Shown here one piece after another: positions 9,448 to 37,769 of a stretch of 39,288 nucleotides of DNA (position 1 is its first letter; every line of letters starts with the position of its first letter). The stretch is from Thermoplasmata archaeon (lineage in GTDB: Archaea; Thermoplasmatota; Thermoplasmata; Thermoplasmatales; ARK-15): NCBI GenBank assembly GCA_023261745.1, contig JAGDXR010000040.1, forward strand, positions 4,682-43,969, given 5' to 3'. A model generated the notes under the pieces. That model saw only the letters and a program-made list of their open reading frames with translations. It was not told the DNA's origin and made no database searches. The position numbers and the translations under genes were made by a program.

Positions 9448-9452
9448 ACCAT

Positions 9453-11676: not shown

Positions 11677-11677
11677 A

Positions 11678-12794: not shown

Positions 12795-12797
12795 AAA

Positions 12798-13754: not shown

Positions 13755-13757
13755 ATG

Positions 13758-14695: not shown

Positions 14696-14705
14696 AAATA
14701 TCACC

Positions 14706-15095: not shown

Positions 15096-15106
15096 TCTGT
15101 ATCACC

Positions 15107-15268
15107 TCACGAATATTTTCTGAATCCCAGTTCTGGGGCTATTTCCCTGAAACATTGCCTGCATAAATGCAGACCATACCTTCTTACTATACCCCTTTTC
15201 CTCCCACAACGATCACATCCCTTTTTCCTGCCATACTCTTTCTTTGGCCCCAACTTCGGTTTTGCCAT
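15107..15268 (-). CDS. rps14: 30S ribosomal protein S14 type Z (uS14), 53 aa (not in supplied ORF track)
   Basis: Hand translation: [53 protein letters not shown]. It has a C4 zinc knuckle. The ATG shares 1 nt with the rpl5 TAA. Confidence 0.9.
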
Positions 15269-15795: not shown

Positions 15796-16510
15796 TCATA
15801 TTCACCTCCGGCAATTTTATCAGAGGTTTTACTGTACCAACGGGAAATACAAAATCACTTATCGTCTCAAACCCTTCCTTGAATCTTACAATGTTGGGGG
15901 TGGATGACCTTGTCTTAAGATACTGATCAATCCTTGCAATCCTTCCTACATTCTGCCCACCGGTTATGAAAGCATATGTATTCTCCTCCAGCGGAATATG
16001 CTCGAGTATTTCCCTGTTTTCCAGATTTATTTTCAATGCATCTCCTGTTTTGTATTGCCTTTCATTCATATGAATGTTTTTTCCATCATGAAAATTGTAC
16101 TGGTACTTTTTGTCTTTTACTACCCTTATATTCTCAATCTTGAGAAGTTTCCACGTTGAATCCTCTTTTGGTATTTCCGTTAACATCATTCTGCCCTTTA
16201 TATCATACAGTATTCTGTAATACCTGTTTATCGACGGAATTGAAAGAACATCCATCAGACCAACAGGATATTTATGATCTGTCCTTACAACATTGTCCAC
16301 ATATACGATCCTTGAGTTAAGAACCTTTTTTGCTTCCCACATCGTATCTACCAGATGCAGATAATCCCTGAGGATTATGCCCAGGGGTATGGACTCATCC
16401 GCCGGATGCGGACCGGCTATCGGTTTTACCGCAAATTTATGCTCCTTTCTGGGTATCTGAACCGACTTCGTTAGATTTAACCTCTTCAGATGTTTGCTCA
16501 ACACTCTCAC
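15785..16510 (-). CDS. rps4e: 30S ribosomal protein S4e
   Basis: The N-terminus SKHLKRLNLTKSVQIPRKEHKFAVKPIAGPHP fixes the start to 16501-16510 (GTG/GTG/TTG); operon position. Confidence 0.9.
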   Translation of the reverse strand: MRVLSKHLKRLNLTKSVQIPRKEHKFAVKPIAGPHPADESIPLGIILRDYLHLVDTMWEAKKVLNSRIVYVDNVVRTDHKYPVGLMDVLSIPSINRYYRILYDIKGRMMLTEIPKEDSTWKLLKIENIRVVKDKKYQYNFHDGKNIHMNERQYKTGDALKINLENREILEHIPLEENTYAFITGGQNVGRIARIDQYLKTRSSTPNIVRFKEGFETISDFVFPVGTVKPLIKLPEVNMSEQ

Positions 16511-16883
16511 CTTCCTCTATTTTTATATTCTTCATTTTTGCAATATTTTCCAGTTTTTCCTTCCTTTTTTTGTCTGACATATCAAGCTTTACTATCTCAA
16601 CCTTTGATGGGTGTATCCAGGCAGGAATCTGCTTTTTGTCCGTCTTACTCATGAGGATGCCTTCTATGGATATCCTTAATTTCTGCATGTCCACCTTTGA
16701 AACCTTTCCTTCCATGCCTCTGTAATTTCCCCTCATTACCCTTACAACATCCCCTTTCCTTACTGCCAATGACCTTATACCATATCTCTGCATTATCTGG
16801 TAAGAAACATGCGCATTCAGCAGCCTGTGTCTTACGTGATGTGGAGCATTGTAAAGCTTTTTTCTCATCCTTGACTGACTCAT
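16437..16883 (-). CDS. rpl24: 50S ribosomal protein L24 (uL24) with acidic C-terminal tail
   Basis: KLYNAPHHVRHRLLNAHVS and KOW block RKGDVVRVMRGNYRGMEGKVSKVD. The tail reads 74 nt into rps4e. Confidence 0.9.
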   Translation of the reverse strand: MSQSRMRKKLYNAPHHVRHRLLNAHVSYQIMQRYGIRSLAVRKGDVVRVMRGNYRGMEGKVSKVDMQKLRISIEGILMSKTDKKQIPAWIHPSKVEIVKLDMSDKKRKEKLENIAKMKNIKIEEGESVEQTSEEVKSNEVGSDTQKGA

Positions 16884-16892
16884 ACAATCACC

Positions 16893-17291
16893 TCAAACTA
16901 TTGTGGATGCAATGGCAGCTATCCTTGGCCACCTTTCAGCCGCTTCCCTTGCCACGGGCCCCTTGATCTCAGTTCCCTTTGTTTCTCCATCTTCAGTTAC
17001 AATTACAGCTGCATTGTCCTCGAATTCTACCATTGTTCCATCAGGACGCCTGAACGGCCTCCTCTGCCTTATAATAACGGCACGCATGACCTTTTTCCTT
17101 GTATCGGGTGTACCCCTTTTAACACTCACAACAACCACGTCACCTATACCGGCTGCAGGCTGTCTCCTTTTGGTGCTGTGGTAAGTTAACACGGTTATGA
17201 TTTCAACTATCTTTGCTCCTGTATTGTCTGCACATTCTATTTCTGCCCCCGTCGGCAGACCCCTTGTCTGTCTTCCCGCCAACCCCTTCAT
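16893..17291 (-). CDS. rpl14: 50S ribosomal protein L14 (uL14)
   Basis: [24 protein letters not shown]; operon position. Confidence 0.94.
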
Positions 17292-17620
17292 CTCTCTTCA
17301 CCCCCAAGATTTTCAATAACCACAAATGAAACGGTTTTTGCGAGCGGTCTGCATTCCATTATTTTAACCCTGTCACCTTCCTTGACAGATATGCAGTCGG
17401 GAACATGCGCATGATATTTTCTTCTTCTCTTCTCATACCTCTCATACTTCTTATCATAACGAAGATACTCTCTAACAACAACTACCGTTTTTATCATATT
17501 TGCTGAACTTACTGTACCCTCAATAACCTGACCGTGTACCTTCAGATCACCGTGAAATGGACATTTTGGATCATTACATTCTTTTTCGGGTTGCTTTACT
17601 TCAACTCCAATATCTTTCAT
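17288..17620 (-). CDS. rps17: 30S ribosomal protein S17 (uS17)
   Basis: [37 protein letters not shown]; operon position. Confidence 0.93.
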
Positions 17621-17629
17621 TTTAATATT

Positions 17630-17854
17630 TCACCTCCTGTAAACCCTGTCAACCGGCCTTTTCATTATATCCTTACCGTATATGATATTTCCATTAACAA
17701 GCATATTCACGCATATTTTCGGGACATATATTCTCTTCCCGGCACTCTCTATCCTTATCATGTTCTTTGTCTCGTCTATTATCTTACCCTTCAGACCTAC
17801 AATGCTGTTCATGGTCGATTCAACTATCACACAGTCCTTACCAATCAACATCAT
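17630..17854 (-). CDS. rnp1: RNase P protein component 1 (Rpp29/Pop4 family), very short form (74 aa)
   Basis: Sm-like barrel block GLKGKIIDETKNMIRIES...IYVPK. It occupies the conserved archaeal slot between rpl29 and rps17. Confidence 0.75.
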   Translation of the reverse strand: MMLIGKDCVIVESTMNSIVGLKGKIIDETKNMIRIESAGKRIYVPKICVNMLVNGNIIYGKDIMKRPVDRVYRR

Positions 17855-18057
17855 ATCCTGACACCCTTTTCTTTTAACACCGTTTTTATCCTTGCAATCT
17901 GCCTCCTTAAGGATTTTATCTTTCCGGGATTATGTGGAGATCCACCCATGGTACTCATGGCCCTTTCATTAAGAAGCGATGACTGCAATTCCTGAAGTTT
18001 CTTCATGAGATCATTGTTGTTCATTTCCCTGAGCATTTTGGCCTTCAGTTCCTTCAT
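17851..18057 (-). CDS. rpl29: 50S ribosomal protein L29 (uL29)
   Basis: MKELKAKMLREMNNNDLMKKLQELQSSLLNERA. ATG at 18057 lies 7 nt after GGAGGT. The ORF-track TTG at 18072 is unlikely. Confidence 0.9.
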   Translation of the reverse strand: MKELKAKMLREMNNNDLMKKLQELQSSLLNERAMSTMGGSPHNPGKIKSLRRQIARIKTVLKEKGVRI

Positions 18058-18676
18058 TTTTATTACCTCCAATTTTAATATTAGCCGGATTTCCTATTAT
18101 CTTGATCTCATCAGGTAGATTGGAATCAGGTGGAAGTATTCTGACAGTTACACCTATTATTCCTGGTTTTGTTTTGGCAACAGCAAACCCAACCTTTACA
18201 GCATGTTTCGGCTGTCCTGAATATTTTATTTTTCCTGCCGTTATCTTTTCCCTCTTTGCCCTGTCTCCCCCAAGCTTTCCACTTACAATTACCTGCGCTC
18301 CCTTGGCTCCTGCGTCCATTATTCTCTTGAGTGTGGAATGGGATGCTCTCCTGAAATGCCATCCTGATTCTAATGCTAAGGCAAGCTTTTTTGCCATTAT
18401 CTGTGCATTGAGATTTATGTTGCCGGATTCCTTTACCTCTATCTGTGGATTTTCTACCCCGTACCTAGTTATCAGTAATTCTGTCAGTTCCTTTATCTTT
18501 GATCCTTTTGATCCTATGATCAACCCTGGTTTTTCTACATAGAGAACCACCCTTAATCCCATGGGGGTTCTCTGAATATCAATACCCCCAAATCCGGCAT
18601 TTTCTGAATATTTCTTTATCTCTTCCTTTATCAGATACCTTTTAACGCTTTCCTGTACGAATTTTTTCTCATCCAT
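18011..18676 (-). CDS. rps3: 30S ribosomal protein S3 (uS3)
   Basis: KH-domain block IDIQRTPMGLRVVLYVEKPGLIIGSKGSKIKELT; operon position. Confidence 0.93.
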   Translation of the reverse strand: MDEKKFVQESVKRYLIKEEIKKYSENAGFGGIDIQRTPMGLRVVLYVEKPGLIIGSKGSKIKELTELLITRYGVENPQIEVKESGNINLNAQIMAKKLALALESGWHFRRASHSTLKRIMDAGAKGAQVIVSGKLGGDRAKREKITAGKIKYSGQPKHAVKVGFAVAKTKPGIIGVTVRILPPDSNLPDEIKIIGNPANIKIGGNKNEGTEGQNAQGNEQQ

Positions 18677-19122
18677 TATTCTACCTCCTTAACTATAATC
18701 TCAAAATGCACCCTTTCCTTGTAAAATGGTGTTGCTCTGCCATATGCCCTAGGCATGTGCTTTTTGATCGTTTCCCCCTTCTTAACAAGCAGTGAATATA
18801 TGATGAGCCTGTCCGTATCAAGATTCTGGTGTTCAGCATTCGCCTCAACGTTTTTCAGCAGTTCAAGCACATATTTTGATACCTTTACTGGATACCTTCC
18901 TGGACCCATTCCCGGTCTGTGGGATATTGAACCCAGATACCTTCTGTAGGGTATTGCCTTCTCTTTCCTGATAACGGCCTCAAGATATTCTTCCGCTTCC
19001 TTCAGATTCTTTCCCTGCAGGAAATTGCAAACATTGACCGAATCCTTTATTGATACGGGCACATTAATTAACCTGGCCCTCGCAGATTTTTCCGGCAATT
19101 CATTAACTGTATACTTCTTCAT
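18676..19122 (-). CDS. rpl22: 50S ribosomal protein L22 (uL22)
   Basis: ARARLINVPVSIKDSVNVCNFLQGKNLKEAEEYLEAVI; operon position. Confidence 0.92.
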   Translation of the reverse strand: MKKYTVNELPEKSARARLINVPVSIKDSVNVCNFLQGKNLKEAEEYLEAVIRKEKAIPYRRYLGSISHRPGMGPGRYPVKVSKYVLELLKNVEANAEHQNLDTDRLIIYSLLVKKGETIKKHMPRAYGRATPFYKERVHFEIIVKEVE

Positions 19123-19128
19123 ATCACA

Positions 19129-19587
19129 TCACTTCAACGGAACATATTTTGAAGATCTCGTTGCACCAACCCCCGGCGCTGAATGCCTTACTTCCCTCCT
19201 TGTCAATACAAATTCTCCAAGGAAATGTCCAATCATCTCGGGTTTTATTTCAAATTCCTGATATTCTTTCCCATTGTATAACTGAACACGCTTCCCTACA
19301 AAATAGGGCAGTATGACTATGTCCCTCACATGTGTTTTAACGATATGTATTTCAGGATCCATAAGCTTCTTGAATAACTTGAGCTGTTCACTGTTCATTT
19401 CTCTTGAAAGTGATCTCCTTGCCCTCGCATTGAATATCTTTATTAAATCTTCAAGTTTCATGTTTTTTAATTCTTCAAGTGAATATCCCCTGTACTTGAA
19501 TTCCTTTGTCCTTTCAGTTGAAAGCTTCTGGGCCCTCCTCCTTTTGTTCGTCTGCCTCCTTTTCACATTAATCTTTTCTCCAGCCAT
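19129..19587 (-). CDS. rps19: 30S ribosomal protein S19 (uS19)
   Basis: EFKYRGYSLEELKNM...GKEYQEFEIKPEMIGHFLGEFVLTRREVRHSAPGVGATRSS; operon position. Confidence 0.93.
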   Translation of the reverse strand: MAGEKINVKRRQTNKRRRAQKLSTERTKEFKYRGYSLEELKNMKLEDLIKIFNARARRSLSREMNSEQLKLFKKLMDPEIHIVKTHVRDIVILPYFVGKRVQLYNGKEYQEFEIKPEMIGHFLGEFVLTRREVRHSAPGVGATRSSKYVPLK

Positions 19588-19592
19588 TCATT

Positions 19593-20297
19593 TCACCTCT
19601 CCCTCAATCTCTTTTTCTTTGGGGCTATCCTTCCCACCTTTCTGCCGGGTGGAGCGTTCTTTGACACTGTTGACGGCCTTCCAATATGCTGATGATTTCC
19701 ACCACCGTGCGGATGGTTAAAGGCATTCATTGCCACACCCCTGACAAAATAGGCCCTCTTTGATTTGCTCTGAAAGGCATGTATCTCATTACCCGCCTTG
19801 AGAAATGGCTTGTCCTTTCTGCCTGCACCGGCAACCATTCCTACTACCGCCCTACACCGGGGATCAAGCATCCTGAACTGCCCCGATGGCAGCTGAATGG
19901 TTGTCTTTTCACCATGTGACACTACTATAGCATAGGATCCCGCAGATCTTACCAGTCTTCCACCATCATTTGGAATCAGTTCAACATTGTGAATTATCGT
20001 GCCATCAGGAATGCTTCCCAGCGGAAGAACGTTTCCATCCTTTATTGGAACGGTATTTCCAACCTGTATTTTATCTCCAATTGAAATTCCTGAAGGTGCA
20101 AGAATATAATAATAATCCTTTCCAAATTTGACAGTGGCTATGGGTGCCGTATGAGCTGGATGATTTAAAATATCAACAATAACGCCTTCAGCATTTTCAA
20201 TATCTGGATGTTTTAAGTCCACATAATACCTGTGTGATGGTGCTCTGTATACAGAATGCCCGGATCCGCGTCTCCTAGTCTTTATTCTCTTACCCAT
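19593..20297 (-). CDS. rpl2: 50S ribosomal protein L2 (uL2)
   Basis: VAMNAFNHPHGGGNHQHIGRPSTV signature; operon position. Confidence 0.95.
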   Translation of the reverse strand: MGKRIKTRRRGSGHSVYRAPSHRYYVDLKHPDIENAEGVIVDILNHPAHTAPIATVKFGKDYYYILAPSGISIGDKIQVGNTVPIKDGNVLPLGSIPDGTIIHNVELIPNDGGRLVRSAGSYAIVVSHGEKTTIQLPSGQFRMLDPRCRAVVGMVAGAGRKDKPFLKAGNEIHAFQSKSKRAYFVRGVAMNAFNHPHGGGNHQHIGRPSTVSKNAPPGRKVGRIAPKKKRLRER

Positions 20298-20307
20298 CTA
20301 TATCACC

Positions 20308-20574
20308 TCAGAATATACCTATCCTTACGGCTATTTCATCCGCATTGAATTCAGGCCTTAATTTAACAAAGGCCTTTTTACCTTTCCTTGAATATAGAAC
20401 GTTTACACTTTCCACCTTTACTCCAAAAGCCCTTTCAACAGCCCATTTGATGTCCATTTTTGTTGCATCCCTTTTTACTATGAACGCCAGTTTGTTTTCC
20501 TTTTCTATCATAAACATCGTTTTTTCAGTTACGTATGGTTTTATTATTATTTCAAAAGGATTGTTCATTGTCAT
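20308..20574 (-). CDS. rpl23: 50S ribosomal protein L23 (uL23)
   Basis: [45 protein letters not shown]. The ATG at 20574 overlaps the rpl4 TGA (ATGA) and is preceded by GGGTGG. Confidence 0.9.
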
Positions 20575-21335
20575 AATACCCACCCTTTGATATTTTCAAG
20601 CGCGCCCATCGTCATCACTACCAGCCTTCCTGCATGTGAACCTGGTGCAAGAATCTCTGCATTCAGATTTGTGGGTGTTACAATTTCAACACCCGGCAAA
20701 TTGTTCATGGCCTTCTTCAGATTCTCATCATTGTTGACAACAAATAATATGCTTTTTGGTGTGTAATATTTTCTTCCCCTGGATTTTCCCTTTCCGGCCC
20801 TTATCCTTGTCCCTCTTTTTGCCCTTTCAATATCGTTCTTTAAACCTAATTTATCTAAAACATTGATCAGAACATCCATATTGTTGATGTCCTCAAGCTT
20901 ATCTTCCATGACAACGGGCAGGGTTATATTTTCCGGAACTATGTGACCCCTCTTCTTAACCATATCCTTGTTTGCAGTCTGTGAAAGCGCCGAGAGCTTT
21001 GCAAGAAACCTCTCCTTTTTATTTACCTTTCTGTACCATTTTCTTTTCGTCGTAGGTCCGAAAACGTTTCTTCCTCCAACCATGTTGGTTGATATTACTC
21101 CTCTGTCACCATCCGCCACCCTGGGAACTCTGGACCTTCCATGATTTGGACCCCAGTTATGACCAACCCTTCTCATGCCCGTGAAATAATACATTCCATA
21201 GGGTTGCCTGGCATTTGACTGAAAACAGTGAACCACCCTCTTTATTATATCAGGCCTGTAAGGCATCTGAAATGCCCTGGGAAGCTCAATTTCTTCCTGA
21301 ACAGTTCCATCAATCCTGTAAACATTAATTTTCAT
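20571..21335 (-). CDS. rpl4: 50S ribosomal protein L4 (uL4)
   Basis: [31 protein letters not shown]; operon position. Confidence 0.93.
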
Positions 21336-21340
21336 TCAAT

Positions 21341-22360
21341 TTACACCCCCTGCTTTGATTCCATTGAAATGTATGAAACCTTTATTTCATTCTCCTCAAT
21401 ATTTGCAGAAGTTGGTCTTATGGGATCCCTGAACCTTACCAGTCTTTTGGAAGAACCTGGAATTGAACCATGGATCATTAGATACCCACCCGTTATTTTT
21501 CCATAATGTAAAAATCCACCCTTTGGAAGTATTTCCTCCTTCAGTTTCCCATTCTCATCGGGAAGAACTACCCTCAGAATTCTTTTATTGTATTCTGTTC
21601 TCTGCTGAAATCCCATCTGCCCCGCCATGGGGACAGTATACATTACCCAGTTTGGATGCCATGGACCAAGGGTCCCCACCAGCCTTCTGTGCTTCCTGTT
21701 TTTATGATGCAGAAGTTTTATTCCAAATCTTTTTATTGAACCCTGGAATCCCTTTCCCTTTGTGACGGCAATCACATCAACCAGTTTTCCAGCCCTGCTG
21801 AAATCCTTAAAGTTCAGCTCTTTCCCCATTTTGTCAATGGCATATTTAATTCTATCCTCGATCTTTCCTCCTCCAACACGCAGTTCAAAAATCTCTGGCC
21901 TCTTTTTAGGAACGCCTGAAATCCTGTATGGCTTTGTATAAACAATCAACCTGACTTCTTCTACGGATGCAATGTCTATTTCTTCAATTTTTATTTCCCT
22001 TATATTTTTTATCTTTGGTATCTTCCTGAAAATTTCTTTATCAACCTTTTCCGTCCAGAATTCCCTGTAAATCTGAAGACCGTAGGTTGTTTTCTTGTAA
22101 AGCCTCATACCTGCAACACCTATAGGCGGAACTTCAACAACAGTCACAGGCATGAAAATTTCCTGTCCTGAAGTATTGCTCTTTTTTCTCCAGTCTGTAA
22201 TAAGAACGTGCGTCATACCAACTTTGTATCCTGCAAATCCCTGTATCCTCGGACCTTCATCTATTTCAGGGTAGCTGTCTATATGAGGAACTATACTCCT
22301 AGCCCTCTTTCTTGGGTAAAAACCCATAGAACCATGTCTCCCATGATGCGGGGTCGCCAT
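21341..22360 (-). CDS. rpl3: 50S ribosomal protein L3 (uL3)
   Basis: HHGRHGSMGFYPRKRA..., FAGYKVGMTHV, VTKGKGFQGSIKRFG. AGGAGG lies upstream of the ATG. It is the first gene of the operon. Confidence 0.95.
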   Translation of the reverse strand: MATPHHGRHGSMGFYPRKRARSIVPHIDSYPEIDEGPRIQGFAGYKVGMTHVLITDWRKKSNTSGQEIFMPVTVVEVPPIGVAGMRLYKKTTYGLQIYREFWTEKVDKEIFRKIPKIKNIREIKIEEIDIASVEEVRLIVYTKPYRISGVPKKRPEIFELRVGGGKIEDRIKYAIDKMGKELNFKDFSRAGKLVDVIAVTKGKGFQGSIKRFGIKLLHHKNRKHRRLVGTLGPWHPNWVMYTVPMAGQMGFQQRTEYNKRILRVVLPDENGKLKEEILPKGGFLHYGKITGGYLMIHGSIPGSSKRLVRFRDPIRPTSANIEENEIKVSYISMESKQGV

Positions 22361-22465
22361 TAAATCATACCTCCTTTTTTAATCATCAACCGTGACACTT
22401 ACTGATGCAGCATAACGAACCGCACCAGTGCGGGATATATTTATCCCTGAGTGTCTGGTTTGATG

Positions 22466-26307: not shown

Positions 26308-26397
26308 ACCTATCAACCTAATATTTTTGAATTTATAAAGTTTATCACAATCCTGTATAAGAAAATTTCGCAAATTAAAAAATATCAAAAAGACCAG

Positions 26398-26470
26398 TGG
26401 ACCGGCCGGGATTTGAACCCGGGGCCTTTTGCTTGCGAAGCAAACGATCTACCAGCTGATCTACCGGCCC
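26398..26470 (-). tRNA. tRNA-Ala (anticodon CGC), 73 nt, no intron, no encoded CCA
   Basis: Cloverleaf folded by hand: acceptor GGGCCGG/CCGGTCC with the G3:U70 identity pair; D-arm GATC/AGCTGGTA/GATC; anticodon arm TTTGC/TTCGCAA/GCAAA; variable AGGCC; T-arm CCGGG/TTCAAAT/CCCGG; discriminator A. Confidence 0.93.
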
Positions 26471-27203: not shown

Positions 27204-27890
27204 ATGGTTGATGAAAATACGGTTTTAATGTTATTATCTTCGGTAATAGCCTTCCTATTCTTCATCATACTGTTTTATAAATACATGATAAGAAGGGATT
27301 CAAAATTTCTTTACTGGTCCATAGGTCTTTTGTTCATGTTTTTCGCATATCTCATAAATTTCTTTTCCCTTATATATTCATGGAATAATCTGCTTTTTGA
27401 TTCATATTATTTTTTTGCAATGGCAAATGTGGGTTTTCTAGGTCTGGGATCCGTTTCCCTGATAAATAAAAATAAAATTACAATGTTACTTTTGACTTAC
27501 AATATAATTATGTCCATGATTTTTCTTTTTGCAATATTATTTTCAAAAGCTAATCTGAATCTTGTTTTAAAGGGTAATTTCAATGCATTTCCAGCCTACG
27601 TATCTTTGCTTGGTGCACTGATCACTGTTCCTGGGGCCATATTTCTAATATTTATTTCCCTTTATTCCGCAATAAAACTCAAGAATAACAGGAATGCTCT
27701 TTTATACAATTCCTTGATTGCACTCGGCGCCATTATATTTTCAGCTGATGGATCCCTTACATTATCAGGAAATGTGACATTTTATTATACATTCCTTTTC
27801 CTTGGACTCGTGTTGATGTTTACTGGATTTCTGAATAGTATAAGTTTTAACAGTAAAATCGAAGTAAATGTTGCTAGAGATTTATCATAA
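27204..27890 (+). CDS. Polytopic membrane protein (about 7 predicted TM helices), unknown function
   Basis: Alternating hydrophobic stretches run throughout. No recognisable catalytic motif. The ATG lies about 64 nt downstream of the ATTATATAA box. Confidence 0.55.
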   Translation: MVDENTVLMLLSSVIAFLFFIILFYKYMIRRDSKFLYWSIGLLFMFFAYLINFFSLIYSWNNLLFDSYYFFAMANVGFLGLGSVSLINKNKITMLLLTYNIIMSMIFLFAILFSKANLNLVLKGNFNAFPAYVSLLGALITVPGAIFLIFISLYSAIKLKNNRNALLYNSLIALGAIIFSADGSLTLSGNVTFYYTFLFLGLVLMFTGFLNSISFNSKIEVNVARDLS

Positions 27891-27904: not shown

Positions 27905-28015
27905 ATTTTTTATATGTCTGCTACTCCTCGCTAAAGCTTCGGAGCCTGTTGCTGGTCTCCCCTCCACCTGTGGCTGGAGGTTCATCGAACCGAAACGATC
28001 GGCTGACTGTGACCT
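27905..28015 (-). ncRNA. Candidate omega-RNA (reRNA) scaffold / right-end region of the IS200/IS605-type element
   Basis: This G+C-rich block (about 58% by hand count over 27921-28010, in a strongly A+T-rich window) lies immediately 3' of the tnpB reading frame. It contains stems such as CCTCCA-N8-TGGAGG and CCGA-N5-TCGG (minus-strand reading). Confidence 0.4.
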
Positions 28016-29049
28016 TTAATACTCAAATATAAAGAATATTTCAATATTCCTTGAGGCGTTCAGTTCAAACCCACAGTTCTTGCATCTGAATAATTAACCG
28101 TGCCTGTTATTTTTATCTATGTATCTGCACCTTGAACATTTATGCAATGTGTGTTCGGAATTTACATATACCACAATCTTATCTGCATCCTTGGCCCTGT
28201 ATTTTATGAACCTTTCCAGTTCTGCTTTTGACCTGATCCAATCATTTTCCTGAATTTTATGCTCAGAACGTTATGTCTCATATCTGCGTATTTCAATGAT
28301 TCAAGCGCAATCACATCATAGGGAAGTGAAACAATTCTCTTTGAGATCATATGATTGACATCACGCACGATCCGTCTTTTTCTTCCGCTTATTTTTTTCA
28401 ATTTCCTATGAGCAGAACGAGCACCTAAGTGCTGTAATCTCCTCTTTAAATATTGATATCTCCCTTTCACTTCCCTAAGATGTTTGCTGTTGAAAAATAT
28501 ATTGTTCGACAGTACTGCTATGTTCTTTATTCCTCTGTCTATTTTCAGTACTTTCACATTTTCTTTTTTCAACACCTCCTTATCAGGTATCTTTACCTGA
28601 ACCATTATAGATATCGTATTCCTTCTTTCATCTATTACCAGCTGGGCATTTGTGTATTCACCCCTGTATTTCTCGATTAAGGATGAATGCGCCACTGGAT
28701 ATACCAGCCTGTCCTGTACTGTGATGAGAGATATCCTATGTGAATCTGGATAGAACTTGAACGTCCTGTTATTATACCTTATTGTGAGTGATTTCTTCTT
28801 TATTTTCTTCTTGATTTTGGTTGCCTTAAATGCTTCCAAAGCTGTATCTCTGGCTATCTGCACCAGTGCTGATAGTAGTGTGGGTATCCTTTCCTTCACA
28901 GTCCTGTATTTACCTTTATTGATTCGGTTTATTGAACGTCTTATTCTCAAATCGTAGTCCATAACTATCTGTGTTGCTTCTTTGAACTGCCTAGCAGTTT
29001 AAATGAGTGATCTATCATACGGAAGCTTCAGTTTGATAGTTTTAAACAT
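28016..29049 (-). pseudogene. tnpB: tnpB (IS200/IS605-family OrfB, RuvC-like RNA-guided nuclease) pseudogene
   Basis: N-terminus MFKTIKLKLPYDRSLI. RuvC-I LKIDRGIKNIAV and RuvC-II VIALESL. After a frame change: WIRSKAELERFIKYRAKDADKIVVYVNSEHT, CSRCRYIDKNNRHG, FRCKNCGFELNASRNI. Lesions are an in-frame TAA at 29001-28999, a frameshift between about 28245 and 28300, an in-frame TAA at 28096-28094, and NAS where the RuvC-III NAD is expected. Confidence 0.85.
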
Positions 29050-32935: not shown

Positions 32936-33565
32936 ATGAAGATTGCACCTTCGATAGTATCAGCGGATCTAACATGCCTTGAAAATGTTATTGAAATACT
33001 TGAAAAGAATGGTATTGATCTTTATCATGTTGATGTGATGGATGGCCATTTTGTTCCTAACATTACAGTCGGTCCAGACTTCATAAAAAATTTGAGAAAA
33101 TTAACTGAACTGCCTATTGAATCCCATCTTATGATAACCAATCCGGAAAAATATGTAAAAAGATTCATGGAAGCAGGATCAGATATGATAACATTACATT
33201 CTGAATTGAGTTCTTCAAAGGATATATTGAAAAATTTAATGGATGTAAAAAGAGGCATTGCAATAAATCCATCCACACCAGCTGAAATTTTAAATGATTA
33301 TTATGGTATTGTTGATTATGTTCTAATAATGTCTGTAAATCCCGGTTTTTCAGGTCAGAAATTCATCCCTGATGTGATACCGAAATTGATAAGAGCTCGT
33401 GAGATATTCGGTGAAAAAATTGAAATTTCGATTGATGGAGGCATAAATTCAGAAACCGTAAAATTTGTAAAAAATTATGTTGATATAATCTGTTCCGCCT
33501 CAGGAATTTTCAGTGGAAATATAGAGGAAAATTTAAAAAAGTTAAGATTGAATTCAATCCCATGA
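32936..33565 (+). CDS. rpe: Ribulose-phosphate 3-epimerase
   Basis: MKIAPSIVSADLTCLE...LYHVDVMDGHFVPNITVGP, VLIMSVNPGFSGQKFIP, ISIDGGIN. Confidence 0.92.
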   Translation: MKIAPSIVSADLTCLENVIEILEKNGIDLYHVDVMDGHFVPNITVGPDFIKNLRKLTELPIESHLMITNPEKYVKRFMEAGSDMITLHSELSSSKDILKNLMDVKRGIAINPSTPAEILNDYYGIVDYVLIMSVNPGFSGQKFIPDVIPKLIRAREIFGEKIEISIDGGINSETVKFVKNYVDIICSASGIFSGNIEENLKKLRLNSIP

Positions 33566-36316
33566 TAGAGGTACATTGCATTTTGGACAGAATGCTTCTT
33601 GATTTGGTAATTCCGTTTCGCACATTGGACAGAAACTTTTTTCCTCATTCCTGACAACATTAAATAATTTTATGCTTGAAAGATAATCCTTTGCAACCTT
33701 TATTTTGTTTATTGATATTCCTGTTTTGTCAGAGATTTCTTTGATATCTGCATTTCTTATATCCTCTATTGTCCTGTAACCTGAATTGAACATCTTTTCT
33801 GCATCCTGAAGAGTAAATGAAGGAAGTTTAGATATTGATTTAATCTTATATTTTGCGTATAATGGAGTGATTCCTATTTCTACATCCCCTTCCATTATAT
33901 CATTAAAGGATCTCACCAGTGCTTCAACTATCTGGTCAGTAAAATTCATTTCCGCTATTTTCAATTCCCTTATCATCTGATCCTTCCTTTTATTTATGAT
34001 ATTTTTTAAATACATTGAATTGGTAAGACTTACTTTGATAATATCATCAAATTCGGTATTTATCTGATACTTCATATAAGAAATCCTTCTCAATAATTTT
34101 TTATAAATTTTTTCTTCCTCAAGTGAATCATCTTCATTGAAATCTATGTAAAATTTGAATTCTCCTATTTCCTTGTAGGCAAATCCTTGGGGCAGCTGAT
34201 ATTCAAACTTTACCATTGAGGGGGTTATTGTTATCAGCTGACCCTCTACTCCTACATTATATCCATTTAACTCTATTTCACTTTTTAATTTTCTTGCATC
34301 CAGTTTTGATAATATAAGTTCAAGGGTGTTTGCCATGGGTTTGTATATATCCCCCAGCTTTTCCCTGTTTAATATTATCTTGTATTCTTTTCCCTTCCAT
34401 GAATCGGTTATCTCAATATCCATAGAATTCAAAAATCTCCTTATCTGGACTTTCATGTTAACCAGAACAGGATTGTATTTCATCTGTGTTTCAATAATTA
34501 TTTTTTTGACCGGTTTTGACTGTTCCCACTCCCTCTCCTTCTTTAATTTTTTCAGCTCATTTTCAAAAATAAACAATGATTCCACGAGGTTTTCAAGGGC
34601 CTCGTTTACCATATATTTTCCTCTCTCAATTTTGACAATGTCAAAATCGGTTTTTGATACAAATTCTAAGATGGTACTTGGGAAAAATGGATATGATATG
34701 GAAATGAACTCCTGAAGTACATCTCTGTTAACCAGATCCTTTCTTATCATTTTCAGATATTTCTTGGAAAATAATTCCACAAAATTGTAGTATTCCTTTA
34801 CAATGTTTACAATATTGAAATTTTCAAAATTCTCATGAAATATTTTCTTTAATCTTTCAGCCCTGGAGAGTATCCATTCATCCAGGACATTTGCATTCTT
34901 TCTTGTTCCATATATTAAAGAAAATCTTAGAATGTTGTCTATGTAACTCCTTATTTTATCGGCCTTGTCAATGTCCTCAATATTCAGAACACCGGATTTT
35001 TTGGATGCAGATGTAATCCTGAAAAGTTCAGGATCACTTTCCATTATGTTTATTTTATTAGAATCAACATAATCAATGTAAATGTCTTCAATGTAATTTG
35101 TTTTTGTTGCTGATATAAAATTAATTAACATTGAAATATTTTTTAATTTTTTATGATTGATCTTTATTTTGTTTTTTATGGAGTTTGAAAATGCGTAGAT
35201 TCCAACAGGTAAAATATTTGGATCATAGGAATATTTCAGAACCATTCTTCCTCCACAGCTACAATCCTTTTCTTCCTTTCCGAATTCTATCTTACCGCAT
35301 TTTTCACATTCCAGTATAGGCAATCTTGGATAGTTCTTGAATTCCTTGGAAATCATAATGGATTTTCTGTAAACCTGTTTTTCAATGCTCTTGGGATGTA
35401 TTCTTACATTTAGCTGGTCAACAGTTAAAAATACTGCATTCTGCCTTTTCTTTCTTACCTTCTTATTACAGTACTTGCATTTTGGAATGTTTCCCATTAC
35501 ATCATCATGATCTATTATTTCAACTTCCAGTTTCACGCTCCTGTCCACATACTTTTCATCAGATGCATTAACATCACCTGATAATATTCGTGTTTGCAGA
35601 TTGGGTTGTATTATTGGTTTAAATAATTTGAAATAACTCTGAATGTCTGTGCCCATTTTTTCTTCATATTTTGCCGGGAATATCACTTTCTTTTCTATTA
35701 ATTTATTATATGTATTTCTCTCTATAACCCATCTTTCATTTCCTTCATTCTGAATATAAAAAATATCATAAGAATTGATCGTCAACCCCTGTGCAGATAA
35801 TACAACATCTTCAGGACCATAGAAAATAAAAAATGTATTGTTATCTATCTTTATTTTTGCATATAAAATCTTGCTTTCCCCAAGTTCAAACATGATGTCC
35901 TGCTTTGAGAGGGCAGTTTTACAGAAATCACAGTAGTATTTTGGGCTTCCATCGACATATAATTTTCCAGAGGAATATAGATTACCTATAATATTATCAA
36001 GCTGCGAGATTGATTTGATATCGGATGATATAAGAGATACACCATTAGTAATATTTTTCATGAGATTTTTAATCTGTACAAAATTTACCTGTGTTTTTTT
36101 AACAGATGTTGGGGGTAGTGCTATAATGGGAATGACCAAACTACCTTCCACAAGATTCATTCCATATGATAATATAATCTTTTTATTTGGATTTTTAAAT
36201 AAAATTTCATCTAACCTATGATAAATATCCGAATAAGAAATCGAAACTAACATTTCATTATCGGGTGGAAGTTCTATTGGATAGGTCCCACCTGTTAATT
36301 TTCTTTCACCCATCAT
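33554..36316 (-). CDS. Class-Ia aminoacyl-tRNA-synthetase-like protein (IleRS/ValRS/LeuRS architecture) with degenerate catalytic motifs and C-terminal HhH-like segment plus zinc ribbon
   Basis: The block order matches class-Ia aaRS. PIELPPDNEMLVSISY sits in place of the HIGH region. Then GKLYVDGSPKYYCDFCKTALSKQDI, IPKCKYCNKKVRKKRQNAVFLTVD and CSCGGRMVLKYSYDPNILPVGIYAF. SASKKSGVLNIEDIDKADKIRSY sits in place of KMSKS. Anticodon-binding-like DEWILSRAERLKK...YYNFVELFSKKYLKMIRKDL. C-terminal CPMCETELPNQEAFCPKCNVPL. Confidence 0.6.
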   Translation of the reverse strand: MMGERKLTGGTYPIELPPDNEMLVSISYSDIYHRLDEILFKNPNKKIILSYGMNLVEGSLVIPIIALPPTSVKKTQVNFVQIKNLMKNITNGVSLISSDIKSISQLDNIIGNLYSSGKLYVDGSPKYYCDFCKTALSKQDIMFELGESKILYAKIKIDNNTFFIFYGPEDVVLSAQGLTINSYDIFYIQNEGNERWVIERNTYNKLIEKKVIFPAKYEEKMGTDIQSYFKLFKPIIQPNLQTRILSGDVNASDEKYVDRSVKLEVEIIDHDDVMGNIPKCKYCNKKVRKKRQNAVFLTVDQLNVRIHPKSIEKQVYRKSIMISKEFKNYPRLPILECEKCGKIEFGKEEKDCSCGGRMVLKYSYDPNILPVGIYAFSNSIKNKIKINHKKLKNISMLINFISATKTNYIEDIYIDYVDSNKINIMESDPELFRITSASKKSGVLNIEDIDKADKIRSYIDNILRFSLIYGTRKNANVLDEWILSRAERLKKIFHENFENFNIVNIVKEYYNFVELFSKKYLKMIRKDLVNRDVLQEFISISYPFFPSTILEFVSKTDFDIVKIERGKYMVNEALENLVESLFIFENELKKLKKEREWEQSKPVKKIIIETQMKYNPVLVNMKVQIRRFLNSMDIEITDSWKGKEYKIILNREKLGDIYKPMANTLELILSKLDARKLKSEIELNGYNVGVEGQLITITPSMVKFEYQLPQGFAYKEIGEFKFYIDFNEDDSLEEEKIYKKLLRRISYMKYQINTEFDDIIKVSLTNSMYLKNIINKRKDQMIRELKIAEMNFTDQIVEALVRSFNDIMEGDVEIGITPLYAKYKIKSISKLPSFTLQDAEKMFNSGYRTIEDIRNADIKEISDKTGISINKIKVAKDYLSSIKLFNVVRNEEKSFCPMCETELPNQEAFCPKCNVPLSWD

Positions 36317-36365
36317 TTTGATTTTTAATCGTTATATTTCATTATAAATTTATCTATTTGTTACA

Positions 36366-37769
36366 TCAATTTTTTATATATTTTTTCATAACATCCGGAA
36401 TTAAATCAATCATTTCACTCGTATAATAGAAGTTTGAATGTTTCTCAAATGCTTCAATGCCTGAATTTCCAACTATGAAAGAACCCATACATGCCGCATG
36501 ATAAGGATCTATACCCCTTGCCATTAACCCTGCAATTACACCTGTTAAAACGTCTCCTGTTCCACCCCTAGTCATGGAAGGATGGTGAAATATTGCATTT
36601 CTTTTTAACCTTTCACCATCGGTAATTATATCCGTACTACCCTTTACCAGTATTGTTACATTCAATTTCATTGAATAATTCTTAATTACCTCCTCAATGG
36701 GATCTTCACCAAACATTTCCCTGAATTCACCTCTGTGAGGTGTTAGTACACCAAGATTTTTAAAATTTATATTTTTTACTGCAAGCAGGGCATCTGCATC
36801 TACAACAACCTTTCTTTTGTTTTCAATTGCAAAATTAACTATTTCCCTGACAGTTTTTAAAACATCTTCATTTGTTGATATCCCCGGTCCAATCGCAAGA
36901 ACTACATCCTTTTCCTTCATCATATCTTTCATCTCATGTGTCAGTTCGATGTATTCATTACCTCCATTACGTAGAATCATATCATTGAAATTCGCACCCA
37001 GTATTGAATGGATGGACTTGGGTGAAAAGAGGTAAACCAGATCCACTCCCATCCTGCCTGCAGCCTTTGATACATATAGAGGTGCACCAAAATAATGTAT
37101 GCTCCCGGCTACAACCATCACCAGACCATTCATCCCTTTATGTGATTCCTTACCGTTCATTCTATATAAAATCATTTCACCTGGACCCACGGATTCAATT
37201 ACTTCCAAGGGAAAACCAACATTCGCAACCACTATTTTTCCACAGCAGTTTTCATCCATACCCTTCTTAATAAATTGCATCGTGACCGTTAAAGTCGGTT
37301 TTATTCTAACCTTTGTGGGAAAACCGCTCGGTACATCAACTGAAATTACACGTTTCCCTGATTCATTGACTTTCTGAATTATACTTCTGAAAGGTTCCCT
37401 TGGCTCATTGTTTAATCCAATCCCTAACATGGCATCTATGATCATATCATATTCATCCAATGATAATTTATCATCCATTATGACACCTTTCTGTAAAGCT
37501 TCATTGTATTTTTTTATGCAAAGTTCAGATGCTGGAGGGGAAACCGGATATCCATGAACTTCGAAACCATTCATTTTTAGTTCTCTGGCAGCAACATAGC
37601 CATCCCCTCCATTATTACCTGAACCGCATATGACAAGGATTTTTGTTGGTTTGAATGATATCGCCTCAGATGCAACTGATTTTCCTGCATTTTCCATTAA
37701 ACTTTCCATATTGATATTGAAAAATTCAGCATTTTTATCCAGTATTCTTGCATCATCTATATCGTACAT
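36366..37769 (-). CDS. nnr: Bifunctional NAD(P)H-hydrate repair enzyme (NAD(P)HX epimerase / ADP-dependent dehydratase, YjeF family)
   Basis: YjeF-N block ILVICGSGNNGGDGYVAAREL. C-terminal carbohydrate-kinase block GMNGLVMVVAGS...GAPLY and TRGGTGDVLTGVIAGL. Confidence 0.9.
   Translation of the reverse strand: MYDIDDARILDKNAEFFNINMESLMENAGKSVASEAISFKPTKILVICGSGNNGGDGYVAARELKMNGFEVHGYPVSPPASELCIKKYNEALQKGVIMDDKLSLDEYDMIIDAMLGIGLNNEPREPFRSIIQKVNESGKRVISVDVPSGFPTKVRIKPTLTVTMQFIKKGMDENCCGKIVVANVGFPLEVIESVGPGEMILYRMNGKESHKGMNGLVMVVAGSIHYFGAPLYVSKAAGRMGVDLVYLFSPKSIHSILGANFNDMILRNGGNEYIELTHEMKDMMKEKDVVLAIGPGISTNEDVLKTVREIVNFAIENKRKVVVDADALLAVKNINFKNLGVLTPHRGEFREMFGEDPIEEVIKNYSMKLNVTILVKGSTDIITDGERLKRNAIFHHPSMTRGGTGDVLTGVIAGLMARGIDPYHAACMGSFIVGNSGIEAFEKHSNFYYTSEMIDLIPDVMKKYIKN

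What the first reader, a model, noticed from the sequence alone, without database searches (positions are those of the whole stretch)
33554..36316. Pseudo-synthetase: class-Ia aaRS scaffold with lost HIGH/KMSKS/editing motifs and an added HhH plus zinc-ribbon tail
Read by eye, the 920-aa ORF follows the IleRS/ValRS/LeuRS domain order block by block, but every catalytic signature is degenerate. The consensus strings below are quoted from memory of the family. PIELPPDNEMLVSISYSD (aa 13-30, nt ~36227-36280) sits where dGPPyanG.lHiGH belongs: the PP is kept and HIGH is gone. SYGMNLVEGSLVIP replaces GwDcHGLPiE. GKLYVDGSPKYYCDFCKTALSKQDI resembles the kGliYrg.k.v.wCp.C.TaLs..Ev entry into CP1. The CP1 segment is only about 130 aa and lacks the T-rich and GTG.VH editing motifs. 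IPKCKYCNKKVRKKRQNAVFLTVD resembles yP.CWRC.tP.i.r...qWFi, and CSCGGRMVLKYSYDPNILPVGIYAF resembles C..CG....r..DVlDvWFdSg. SASKKSGVLNIEDIDKADKIRSY (aa ~436-458, nt ~34940-35010) sits where KMSKS.GN.i.P......yGaDalR belongs. DEWILSRAERLKKIFHENFENFNIVNIVKEYYNFVELFSKKYLKMIRKDL looks like the anticodon-binding helix bundle. About 330 further residues follow, ending in an HhH-like segment (LQDAEKMFNSGYRTIEDIRNADIKEISDKTGISINKIKVAKDYL) and a CPMC...CPKC ribbon. The reading frame is fully open in an A+T-rich genome, so the gene is maintained. It is probably a tRNA- or nucleic-acid-binding protein rather than an aminoacylating enzyme. It sits 49 nt downstream of nnr on the same strand.
Basis: partly seen in the sequence, partly recalled or inferred. 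Interest (0 to 1): 0.72.

Follow-up and report, generated by a model that had tools for sequence, protein, structure and literature searches.

The report
Dead isoleucyl-tRNA synthetase kept as scaffold
This archaeal gene is its lineage's original isoleucyl-tRNA synthetase, which lost every catalytic motif while a second, bacterial-type enzyme does the charging, yet it is still conserved, so it probably keeps a non-enzymatic job such as binding tRNA.

Summary
The 920-aa ORF (33554-36316, minus strand) is real. It is specifically an IleRS derivative: profile-profile E 4.5e-99, and only IleRS among solved structures. HIGH, KMSKS and both editing motifs are gone, the two Rossmann halves are shrunken, and four structural Cys pairs are kept. 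About 220 of the "330 extra residues" are the normal IleRS C-terminal domain (DUF5915).

The HhH plus zinc-ribbon tail was not added to the dead enzyme. Catalytically intact IleRS of many Thermoplasmata carry HhH, often a zinc ribbon, and DUF835 (inactive KaiC-like), at a conserved locus rpe-fen1-ileS-acnX. Mid-size dead forms in DHVE2/Aciduliprofundum sit at that same locus. The window's family keeps rpe next door.

An intact, tail-less, bacterial-type-2 IleRS lies 8 kb away on a sister contig (98% identical DNA), and in 5 of the 9 reference genomes that carry the dead gene. dN/dS is about 0.13, like its neighbours.

Best reading: the ancestral ileS, functionally displaced and kept for a non-catalytic role. 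tRNA(Ile) or nucleic-acid binding is inferred, not shown. It is a new variant of the known pseudo-synthetase kind.

The parts
33554..36316 (-). Whole gene: 920-aa catalytically dead IleRS derivative (stop codon 33554-33556)
   Evidence: ORF. IleRS homology. Family alignment. dN/dS 0.13.
36029..36316 (-). aa 1-96: remnant of the first Rossmann half. PP17-18 and D30 are kept; HIGH and GWDxHGLPIE are lost.
   Evidence: MAFFT columns. Not reached by hhalign. pLDDT below 50 in both models. Least conserved segment of the family, 40% mean identity.
35480..36028 (-). aa 97-279: entry into CP1 with zinc knuckle C129/C132, and a shortened CP1-like domain without the editing motifs
   Evidence: phmmer match to IleRS2 8c8u residues 155-264. 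hhalign. TTTPWT and GTGxVH motifs lost. pLDDT 80-90. 50% mean family identity.
35201..35479 (-). aa 280-372: zinc knuckles C280/C283, C337/C340 and C352/C354, plus the ISKEFKNYPRLPILEC block (= DWCISRQRYWGIPIPVWEC)
   Evidence: The Cys pairs are invariant across 20 sequences including intact IleRS. Most conserved segment of the family, 60%.
35027..35200 (-). aa 373-430: collapsed second Rossmann half. The KMSKS position (about aa 405-415, NYIEDIY) is lost.
   Evidence: hhalign and MAFFT. pLDDT below 50 at 380-426.
34517..35026 (-). aa 431-600: helical anticodon-binding domain (DPELFR = GxDxLR; DEWILSR)
   Evidence: Pfam Anticodon_1 above cut-off. hhalign. 10 of 22 positions conserved in canonical IleRS are retained.
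33857..34516 (-). aa 601-820: IleRS C-terminal domain (DUF5915), the tRNA-binding domain of type-2/archaeal/eukaryotic IleRS
   Evidence: Pfam DUF5915 above cut-off. Profile match to 8c8u/8c8v residues 671-1012. pLDDT 80-90. dN/dS 0.05.
33662..33856 (-). aa 821-885: (HhH)2 domain resembling the N-terminal domain of RadA/Rad51
   Evidence: HHH_5 at 23.6 bits, below cut-off 27; above cut-off in relative P0029. Weak RadA N-terminus hits in NCBIfam. Foldseek local matches to 1pzn, 2zub, 3fyh: 22-29% identity, rmsd 1.2-2.1 over about 50 aa.
33557..33661 (-). aa 886-920: zinc ribbon C896-x2-C899 ... C910-x2-C913, ending at W919
   Evidence: The four Cys and W919 are invariant in 14 family members. 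Zinc-ribbon Pfam hits are weak.
36341..36357 (-). Conserved AAATTTATAAT motif ending 24 nt upstream of the ATG. Candidate archaeal TATA box for a leaderless transcript (inferred).
   Evidence: Sequence. Alignment of 8 loci from clades only about 40% identical in protein shows the invariant core AATTT.T.AT.
32936..33565 (+). rpe (ribulose-phosphate 3-epimerase), convergent, 3' ends overlapping by 12 nt. The only neighbour linked to the gene in all 12 loci of the family, and also a neighbour of intact ileS in other Thermoplasmata.
36366..37769 (-). nnr (NAD(P)HX epimerase/dehydratase), upstream on the same strand. Present at 10 of 12 loci: replaced by a class II aaRS gene in L010, and not assessable in L007, where the contig starts at the gene.

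Best explanation
The gene descends from the ancestral archaeal-type ileS of Thermoplasmata. That enzyme already carried a C-terminal RadA-like HhH domain, a zinc ribbon and, in most lineages, an inactive KaiC-like DUF835 domain.

In the thermophilic lineages that include the window's organism, tRNA(Ile) charging is done by a different, tail-less IleRS of the bacterial type-2 clade. Relieved of that duty, the old gene lost HIGH, KMSKS, the editing site and most of both Rossmann halves. In this family it also lost DUF835.

It kept its zinc-stabilised core, a CP1-like domain, the anticodon-binding and C-terminal tRNA-binding domains, and the HhH/zinc-ribbon tail. All of these remain under purifying selection.

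Inferred mechanism: a non-catalytic protein that still docks on the anticodon arm of tRNA(Ile), or another structured nucleic acid, through the retained IleRS domains. It would use the HhH/zinc-ribbon tail to contact DNA or a partner protein. On this view it continues a second, non-charging role that the tail-bearing enzyme already had.

Shown: ancestry, motif loss, the co-existing intact enzyme, and selection. Inferred: binding and the nature of the second role.
For: IleRS ancestry:
- hhalign E 4.5e-99 over aa 97-920.
- A family profile hits only IleRS chains in the PDB.
- Foldseek ranks type-2 and yeast IleRS first, E 1e-32 to 1e-26.

Dead enzyme:
- All four catalytic or editing signatures are absent in every member.
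- TIGR00392 scores 30 bits against a cut-off of 621.
- Only 13-22% of positions conserved in canonical IleRS survive in the catalytic and editing regions, and most of the survivors are the zinc-binding Cys plus scattered Pro, Gly and Asp. In the anticodon-binding and C-terminal domains 45-50% survive.

Tail inherited:
- Intact IleRS with HHH_5, a zinc ribbon in some, and DUF835 (1320-1500 aa) are the annotated isoleucine--tRNA ligase of many Thermoplasmata, including Methanomassiliicoccus.
- A rough NJ tree puts the short and mid-size dead forms inside that clade.

Same locus:
- rpe-fen1-ileS-acnX is conserved around intact forms.
- DHVE2 mid-size dead forms sit directly upstream of acnX in the same orientation.
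- The window family keeps rpe adjacent.

Replacement enzyme:
- A 1026-aa IleRS lies 8.2 kb away on contigs collinear with the window at 98% identity. HLGH, WTTTPWT, GTGIVHIAP and KMSKS are intact in the first 608 residues, the part fetched.
- It is found in the same assemblies as the dead gene in JBAMMA01, JAGDXS01, JBMFTB01, JAVRLH01 and JAVRLK01.
- It is closest to P. megaterium IleRS2 (E 6e-277) and passes the ileS cut-off with 911 bits.

Maintained:
- dN/dS is 0.13 against the 98% relative, and 0.08-0.19 in three other pairs. Neighbouring genes give 0.03-0.13.
- The ORF is intact in 12 loci spanning about 40% protein identity.
- A TATA-like motif upstream is conserved.
Against: - No binding or expression data exist. 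tRNA binding rests only on which domains stay conserved.
- The anticodon helical domain is among the less conserved parts within the family (41% identity).
- The first HhH hairpin glycine is replaced in the window's subclade (LPSFT against LPG(I/L)T elsewhere), so DNA binding by the tail is uncertain.
- The protein is much richer in K/I/N/Y/F (41-45%) than housekeeping proteins of the same window (27-35%). That fits relaxed constraint on much of the surface.
- For the window family the locus argument rests on rpe adjacency alone, and rpe has the opposite orientation from the ancestral arrangement.
- The tree is neighbour-joining without support values.
- Co-occurrence was not shown for the other 4 GTDB genomes (JAVZSA01, WSBC01, PNIT01, CAYSIM01) or for DHVE2. 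The query-specific patterns would only find close relatives.
- The direction of transfer of the type-2 enzyme was not resolved.
Confidence: 0.6

Rival explanations
1. Scaffold or regulator that acts through protein-protein or DNA contacts rather than tRNA. For example, it could bind the type-2 IleRS, another synthetase or EF-1alpha, or tether something to DNA through the RadA-like HhH domain and zinc ribbon. The IleRS body would serve only as a structural platform.
For: - The best-conserved segments are the zinc-knuckle core (60%) and the HhH domain (55%), not the anticodon helical domain (41%).
- The tail resembles the RadA/Rad51 N-terminal domain, which in those proteins binds DNA and partners.
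- Relatives carry DUF835, described as an inactive KaiC-like signalling domain.
Against: - Positions conserved in canonical IleRS are retained best in the two tRNA-binding domains (45-50%).
- DUF5915 has the lowest dN/dS of all segments, 0.05.
- No conserved partner gene lies next to it. nnr and rpe are metabolic genes.
Confidence: 0.2
2. A new enzyme built on the old frame. For example, a tRNA-dependent transferase that uses Ile-tRNA(Ile), as the IleRS homologue SbzA does. Alternatively, an activity housed in the conserved CP1-like domain.
For: - IleRS homologues with non-canonical chemistry exist (SbzA; review PMC9437257).
- The CP1-like domain is confidently folded and 50% conserved.
Against: - The Rossmann core that would hold the acyl-adenylate or the 3' end is the most degraded and least confidently modelled part.
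- The editing-site residues are gone.
- There are no biosynthetic genes nearby.
Confidence: 0.1
3. A decaying relic with no function that has simply not yet been deleted.
For: - Composition has drifted strongly towards the AT-rich mutational bias. Local GC is 0.31 and K+I+N+Y+F is 41%.
- The catalytic regions have shrunk progressively from long to mid-size to short forms.
Against: - The 2.76-kb frame is open in 12 loci from clades only about 40% identical.
- The apparent break in L012 is a run of N, not a frameshift.
- dN/dS is 0.08-0.19, including 0.18 for the dead N-terminal half.
Confidence: 0.05
4. A very divergent but still active IleRS.
For: Some full-length relatives have only partly altered motifs and might still work, for example P0043 with HVGI and KISKS.
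Against: - In this family HIGH, KMSKS, GWDxHGLPIE and about half of the second Rossmann half are missing.
- A canonical IleRS co-exists in the same genomes.
Confidence: 0.02

Closest known systems
LeuRS-I of Sulfolobaceae and LeuRS2 of Halobacteria (second archaeal LeuRS copies with lost or very weak aminoacylation; review PMC9437257)
   Same: Class Ia synthetase copy in an archaeon, next to a working enzyme. The CP1 domain is disrupted and the C-terminus is unusual. The copy is retained and thought to act in a tRNA-dependent but non-translational way.
   Different: LeuRS-I still makes leucyl-adenylate and keeps a full catalytic core. Here HIGH and KMSKS are gone and the Rossmann halves have collapsed. 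Here the dead copy appears to be the original gene at the original locus and the working enzyme the different type, rather than a degenerate duplicate. The parent is also IleRS, not LeuRS.
Bacterial ileS1/ileS2 pairs (type-2, mupirocin-resistant IleRS acquired alongside or instead of type-1; PMC10485003, bioRxiv 10.1101/2022.02.09.479832)
   Same: Two evolutionarily distinct IleRS genes in one genome. The working enzyme here belongs to the type-2 clade: closest solved structure is P. megaterium IleRS2, with MupA/MupB-like scores of about 900 bits.
   Different: In bacteria both copies are active, or one is lost outright. Here the displaced copy persists as a catalytically dead protein. The displaced enzyme is the archaeal tail-bearing type, not bacterial type-1.
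HisRS-like domain of GCN2 and HisZ (synthetase-derived non-catalytic sensor or regulatory modules; own knowledge, HisZ listed in PMC9437257)
   Same: A synthetase fold that lost catalysis but keeps ligand or tRNA recognition and is coupled to other domains.
   Different: Those are class II HisRS derivatives with demonstrated functions. No effector domain is present in the window protein, and DUF835 is present only in its relatives.
Tail-bearing Thermoplasmata IleRS (IleRS-HHH_5-[zinc ribbon]-DUF835, 1320-1500 aa; annotated only as isoleucine--tRNA ligase)
   Same: Direct parent architecture: same anticodon-binding domain, DUF5915, HhH and zinc ribbon, and the same gene neighbourhood.
   Different: The parent has an intact catalytic core and editing domain and usually ends in DUF835. 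The window protein has neither. I found no paper describing this fusion: DUF835 appears in one held paper and DUF5915 in none.

Membership tests
Isoleucyl-tRNA synthetase (class Ia), as a homologous family | Significant profile or fold similarity along the IleRS domain order, and closer to IleRS than to ValRS or LeuRS | tested here: met
   hhalign E 4.5e-99 over aa 97-920. A family profile hits only IleRS chains in the PDB. Foldseek ranks IleRS above ValRS above LeuRS. The second model's alignment contained canonical IleRS, so the fold match is not independent of that.
Isoleucyl-tRNA synthetase, as a working enzyme | HIGH signature (HxGH/HxGT) in the first Rossmann half | tested here: not met
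   Absent in all members. A 6-residue deletion lies where the motif sits.
Isoleucyl-tRNA synthetase, as a working enzyme | KMSKS loop | tested here: not met
   The aligned position reads NYIEDIY. The surrounding 58 residues are reduced to about 26.
Isoleucyl-tRNA synthetase, as a working enzyme | CP1 editing motifs (WTTTPWT; GTGxVHxAPGHGxxD) | tested here: not met
   Replaced by FIFYGPED and TRILSGDVNAS. CP1 is 148 aa against 212 aa.
Isoleucyl-tRNA synthetase, as a working enzyme | Curated model cut-offs (Pfam tRNA-synt_1; NCBIfam TIGR00392 ileS) | tested here: not met
   No PF00133 hit. TIGR00392 scores 30.4 bits against a cut-off of 621.4.
Isoleucyl-tRNA synthetase, as a working enzyme | Ile activation and tRNA(Ile) charging in vitro | not testable with these tools
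   Needs ATP-PPi exchange and aminoacylation assays.
Anticodon_1 / DUF5915 (IleRS tRNA-binding C-terminal half) | Pfam hits above the gathering score | tested here: met
   PF08264 scores 33.5 against 25.1. PF19302 scores 30.2 against 27.
(HhH)2 domain, RadA/Rad51 N-terminal type | HHH_5 profile above cut-off, and two helix-hairpin-helix motifs with hairpin glycines | tested here: inconclusive
   23.6 bits against a cut-off of 27 in the window protein, and 37.4 bits in relative P0029. Local fold matches to RadA have rmsd 1.2-2.1. The first hairpin glycine is replaced by Ser in the window's subclade.
DUF835 / inactive KaiC-like domain proteins | C-terminal PF05763 domain | tested here: not met
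   The protein ends 7 residues after the zinc ribbon. DUF835 is present in the mid-size and long relatives.
Decaying pseudogene | Frame disruptions, or dN/dS near 1 | tested here: not met
   The frame is open in 12 loci. dN/dS is 0.08-0.19.
Anti-phage defence proteins (PADLOC) | Match to any PADLOC model | tested here: not met
   No hit at E <= 0.01.

The most novel reading that the evidence does not exclude
The tail-bearing archaeal IleRS is a two-function protein, a synthetase plus a tRNA(Ile)- or isoleucine-status sensor wired through HhH, zinc ribbon and an inactive KaiC-like domain into archaeal KaiC-type signalling. The dead forms are the pure sensor left behind once charging passed to another enzyme. 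That would be an archaeal counterpart of the GCN2 HisRS-like domain, in a domain of life with no known stringent-response or GCN2-type sensor of uncharged tRNA.
Probability: 0.15. Interest if true: 0.85.

Novelty: new variant of a known kind. Interest (0 to 1): 0.62.

Why it matters
Replacement of one synthetase by a foreign one is textbook, but the displaced gene is normally just lost. Here it appears to have been kept for a long time as a shrunken, catalytically dead protein, spanning DHVE2/Aciduliprofundum and several uncultured thermophilic Thermoplasmata lineages.

The series of intact, motif-less full-length, mid-size and short forms is a natural deletion series. It shows which parts of an IleRS matter when charging no longer does: the zinc core, the tRNA-binding C-terminal half and the HhH/zinc-ribbon tail.

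This implies that the tail-bearing IleRS of Thermoplasmata, including cultivable Methanomassiliicoccus, has a second, undescribed function. It also gives a direct way to look for that function.

Tried and rejected
- The first AlphaFold run, with only the six family sequences, gave pLDDT 52.8 and an unusable N-terminal half. Adding canonical IleRS rows raised it to 73.6, but that biases the model towards the IleRS fold.
- A word-index search with a 14-sequence family alignment returned no members beyond the five already known.

Attempts to find the working IleRS:
- Looking up the contig of P0006 gave an unrelated assembly.
- The window protein itself is not on record.
- Matching NCBI accession numbers of canonical IleRS clusters to those of the dead-gene clusters gave no pair closer than about 2950 accessions.
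- I designed an AT-biased degenerate DNA pattern for DWCISRQRYWG and tested it on 80 local loci. It matched none, and codon use proved too variable, so I ran no further search on it.
- No canonical IleRS lies in any of the first 130 loci around the dead genes.

Other dead ends:
- The Makarova et al. 2017 paper on KaiC-like hubs is not held.
- A defence role was checked with PADLOC and gave no hit.
- The apparent split of the gene in L012 is a masked run of N.

Full report
**1. What is in the window**

The ORF 33554..36316 on the minus strand encodes 920 aa from an ATG. It lies 49 nt downstream of nnr (36366..37769; YjeF_N + Carb_kinase). Its 3' end overlaps the convergent rpe gene (32936..33565) by 12 nt. 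Local G+C is 0.31, the lowest in the window.

Pfam finds the following:
- Anticodon_1 at aa 479-553 and DUF5915 at aa 644-795, both above their cut-offs.
- HHH_5 at 837-868, just below its cut-off.
- Weak zinc-ribbon hits at 890-917.
- No tRNA-synt_1.

The NCBIfam ileS model scores 30 bits against a cut-off of 621.

**2. It is an IleRS derivative and it is catalytically dead**

An alignment of 14 family members against 16 canonical IleRS gives hhalign probability 100 and E 4.5e-99, covering aa 97-920 against IleRS 145-end. A family profile hits only IleRS chains among all PDB sequences. Foldseek with the better model ranks type-2 bacterial and yeast IleRS first (E 1e-32 to 1e-26), then ValRS, then LeuRS.

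Column by column:
- HIGH is gone. PP17-18 and D30 line up with PP42-43 and D61 of a canonical enzyme, with a 6-residue deletion in between. This part rests on MAFFT only.
- GWDxHGLPIE is gone.
- WTTTPWT reads FIFYGPED.
- GTGxVHxAPGHG reads TRILSGDVNAS.
- The KMSKS position reads NYIEDIY, inside a segment shortened from about 58 to about 26 residues.

Four Cys pairs (129/132, 280/283, 337/340, 352/354) are invariant across 20 sequences that include intact enzymes.

Of the positions conserved in canonical IleRS, only 13-22% survive in the catalytic and editing regions. Most of those are the Cys pairs plus scattered Pro, Gly and Asp. In the anticodon-binding and C-terminal domains 45-50% survive.

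AlphaFold2 with a mixed alignment (pLDDT 73.6) is confident everywhere except aa 1-98, 299-318 and 380-426. The first and last of these are the two Rossmann halves.

DPELFR (428-433) is the GxDxLR that follows KMSKS, so SASKKSG is not the KMSKS equivalent.

**3. The family**

The word-index search found five clusters, all from Thermoplasmata MAGs, 41-98% identical and 918-922 aa long. NCBI names them 'class I tRNA ligase family protein' or 'DUF5915 domain-containing protein'. Nine GTDB species genomes carry the gene, including 'Aciduliprofundum sp. ARK-15'.

An exhaustive profile search revealed a graded series:
- Mid-size forms (about 1000-1090 aa) have the same degraded N-terminal half but end in DUF835.
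- Full-length forms (1170-1500 aa) have lost the motifs but keep their size.
- Fully intact IleRS (1320-1780 aa) have HIGH and KMSKS and carry HhH, often a zinc ribbon, sometimes more HhH or TPR, and DUF835.

DUF835 is described as a divergent, probably inactive KaiC-like domain used as a signalling output (PMC5847659). The intact, tail-bearing proteins are simply the annotated isoleucine--tRNA ligase of many Thermoplasmata, including Methanomassiliicoccus. The tail is therefore ancestral, not an addition to the dead enzyme.

The HhH part matches the RadA/Rad51 N-terminal domain locally, at 22-29% identity and rmsd 1.2-2.1. HhH followed by a RecA/KaiC-like domain is also the layout of RadA itself.

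A neighbour-joining tree of the shared region puts the short and mid-size dead forms together, inside the tail-bearing Thermoplasmata clade. The tree is rough and has no support values.

**4. The locus**

Around intact ileS of Thermoplasmata, with or without the tail, the order rpe -> fen1 -> ileS -> <- acnX-small <- acnX-large is highly conserved. The mid-size dead forms, found in DHVE2/Aciduliprofundum MAGs, sit directly upstream of acnX in the same orientation. Several motif-less full-length forms do too.

The window family has nnr -> gene -> <- rpe. rpe is adjacent in 12 of 12 loci. nnr is adjacent in 10 of 12; L010 has a class II synthetase instead, and the L007 contig starts at the gene.

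The dead genes therefore look like the original ileS decaying in place, not stray duplicates. For the window family this rests on rpe adjacency, with inverted orientation, plus the tree.

**5. The working enzyme**

The contigs that encode the 98%-identical protein P0001 are collinear with the window at 98.2% DNA identity, from window 39203 down to 29159. About 8.2 kb past the dead gene they carry a 1026-aa tRNA-synt_1 + Anticodon_1 + DUF5915 gene. Only its first 608 residues were fetched. In them HLGH, GWDCHGLPVE, WTTTPWT, GTGIVHIAPAFGADD and KMSKS are intact.

Using that fragment as query, the same enzyme was found in the same assemblies as the dead gene for five GTDB genomes: JBAMMA01, JAGDXS01, JBMFTB01, JAVRLH01 and JAVRLK01. 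It is 67-85% identical, full length at 1023-1030 aa, has intact motifs and has no tail.

Its nearest relatives are Thermoplasmatales (Acidiplasma, 56%) and Jordarchaeia, then many Bacteria at about 50%. The closest solved structure is the type-2 IleRS of P. megaterium (E 6e-277). The enzyme passes the ileS cut-off and scores about 900 bits on the MupA/MupB models, against about 610-640 bits for a tail-bearing archaeal IleRS.

The direction of transfer was not resolved. The other four genomes with the dead gene, and the DHVE2 genomes, were not reached, because the patterns were specific to the query.

**6. Selection and expression signals**

dN/dS of the dead gene is 0.134 between the window and its 98% relative (28 synonymous and 16 non-synonymous differences). 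The five neighbouring genes give 0.03-0.13. The dead N-terminal half alone gives 0.18 and DUF5915 gives 0.05. Three other pairs give 0.08-0.19.

Within the family the zinc-knuckle core (60%) and the HhH domain (55%) are the most conserved. The two Rossmann remnants (40% and 44%) and the anticodon helical domain (41%) are the least conserved.

A motif AAATTTATAAT, ending 24 nt before the ATG, is conserved across clades whose proteins are only about 40% identical. I read it as a candidate TATA box for a leaderless transcript. That is inference.

The protein is markedly richer in K/I/N/Y/F than housekeeping proteins of the window. This fits relaxed constraint on much of its surface.

**7. Interpretation**

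*Shown:* IleRS ancestry; loss of all catalytic and editing signatures; inheritance of the tail; co-existence with an intact type-2 IleRS; purifying selection.

*Inferred:* the protein still recognises tRNA(Ile), or another structured nucleic acid, through its retained C-terminal half. The HhH/zinc-ribbon tail would mediate a DNA or protein contact that was already a second function of the ancestral enzyme.

*Rivals:* a pure protein or DNA scaffold, a new enzyme on the old frame, a functionless relic, and a divergent active IleRS. The last two are disfavoured by the data.

**8. Comparison with the literature**

A 2022 review of synthetase duplicates lists, for IleRS, only IleRS2 and SbzA. Its closest archaeal analogues are LeuRS-I of Sulfolobaceae and LeuRS2 of Halobacteria (PMC9437257). 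Searches for DUF5915, for DUF835, and for IleRS with HhH found no description of this family or of the tail-bearing parent. The held library is not complete, so this is absence of evidence only.

I rate the finding as a new variant of a known kind (the pseudo-synthetase). It has an unusual history, in that the original gene is the one that died, and an undescribed parent architecture.

Noticed in passing
window 28204-28962 (-), with the synteny break at about 29159: A 252-aa ORF carries an IS605 OrfB (TnpB-type) transposase domain. It sits within 200 nt of the point where 98%-identity collinearity with the sister contig L131 ends. In L131 the next genes are thyX, polyprenyl synthase, ThrRS and the working IleRS. 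A 130-nt stretch of the window (27912-28038) matches the far end of L131 at 83%. An IS-linked rearrangement probably separated the dead gene from the working ileS in this genome.
   Followed up: partly
L115 2129-6334 and about 30 other loci (L017-L030, L040, L054, L116-L120, L126): Catalytically intact IleRS of many Thermoplasmata, including a complete Methanomassiliicoccaceae chromosome, is a 1320-1500-aa fusion with HhH, sometimes a zinc ribbon or TPR, and a C-terminal DUF835 (inactive KaiC-like) domain. It lies in a conserved rpe-fen1-ileS-acnX neighbourhood. I found no paper describing this.
   Followed up: partly
L033-L037, L043, L053; proteins P0038-P0044, P0046, P0048, P0054, P0057, P0058, P0062: Full-length tail-bearing forms (1170-1780 aa) with HIGH and KMSKS partly or wholly lost. 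Several sit at the ancestral acnX-linked locus in soil and sediment Thermoplasmata. Some (P0043 with HVGI and KISKS, P0042) may still be active. Whether their genomes hold a second IleRS was not checked.
   Followed up: no
L099-L114, L117 (DHVE2 / Aciduliprofundum MAGs): Mid-size dead IleRS (about 1000 aa) that still end in DUF835. They lie between ubiA/pcrB (lipid synthesis) and acnX/purH. The cultured A. boonei was not among the hits, but the patterns used may have missed it.
   Followed up: partly
window 36341-36357 (-): A TATA-like AAATTTATAAT motif ends 24 nt upstream of the start codon. It is conserved across distant clades, which suggests the gene has its own promoter and a leaderless mRNA, rather than only read-through from nnr.
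   Followed up: partly
window 33554-36316 compared with the rest of the window: The dead gene has the lowest G+C of the window (0.31). Its product is 41% K+I+N+Y+F and 13% G+A+R+P, against 27-35% and 18-26% for nnr, glyA, rpe, ftsZ and purF. Its composition has drifted with the mutational bias.
   Followed up: yes
window 1578-4130 (-): An 850-aa ORF whose only Pfam match is one weak TPR_12 hit. Its function is unknown.
   Followed up: no
window 27204-27890 (+): A 228-aa ORF with no Pfam match, next to the IS605 OrfB fragment and the tRNA-Ala gene region.
   Followed up: no
window 26397-26470 (-): tRNA-Ala(CGC) is the only tRNA or Rfam match in the window. No tRNA(Ile) gene lies near the dead IleRS.
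   Followed up: yes
window about 6000-22400 (-): A long run of short, tightly packed minus-strand ORFs ends with ribosomal protein L3 (21341-22360). It is presumably the large ribosomal-protein operon. ftsZ (382-1485) and purF (4572-6017) lie upstream. Only L3, ftsZ and purF were checked.
   Followed up: no
L010 1654-2943 (-): In the TVZ.SD19.226 genome the gene upstream of the dead IleRS is a divergent class II Asp/Asn-type synthetase instead of nnr.
   Followed up: no
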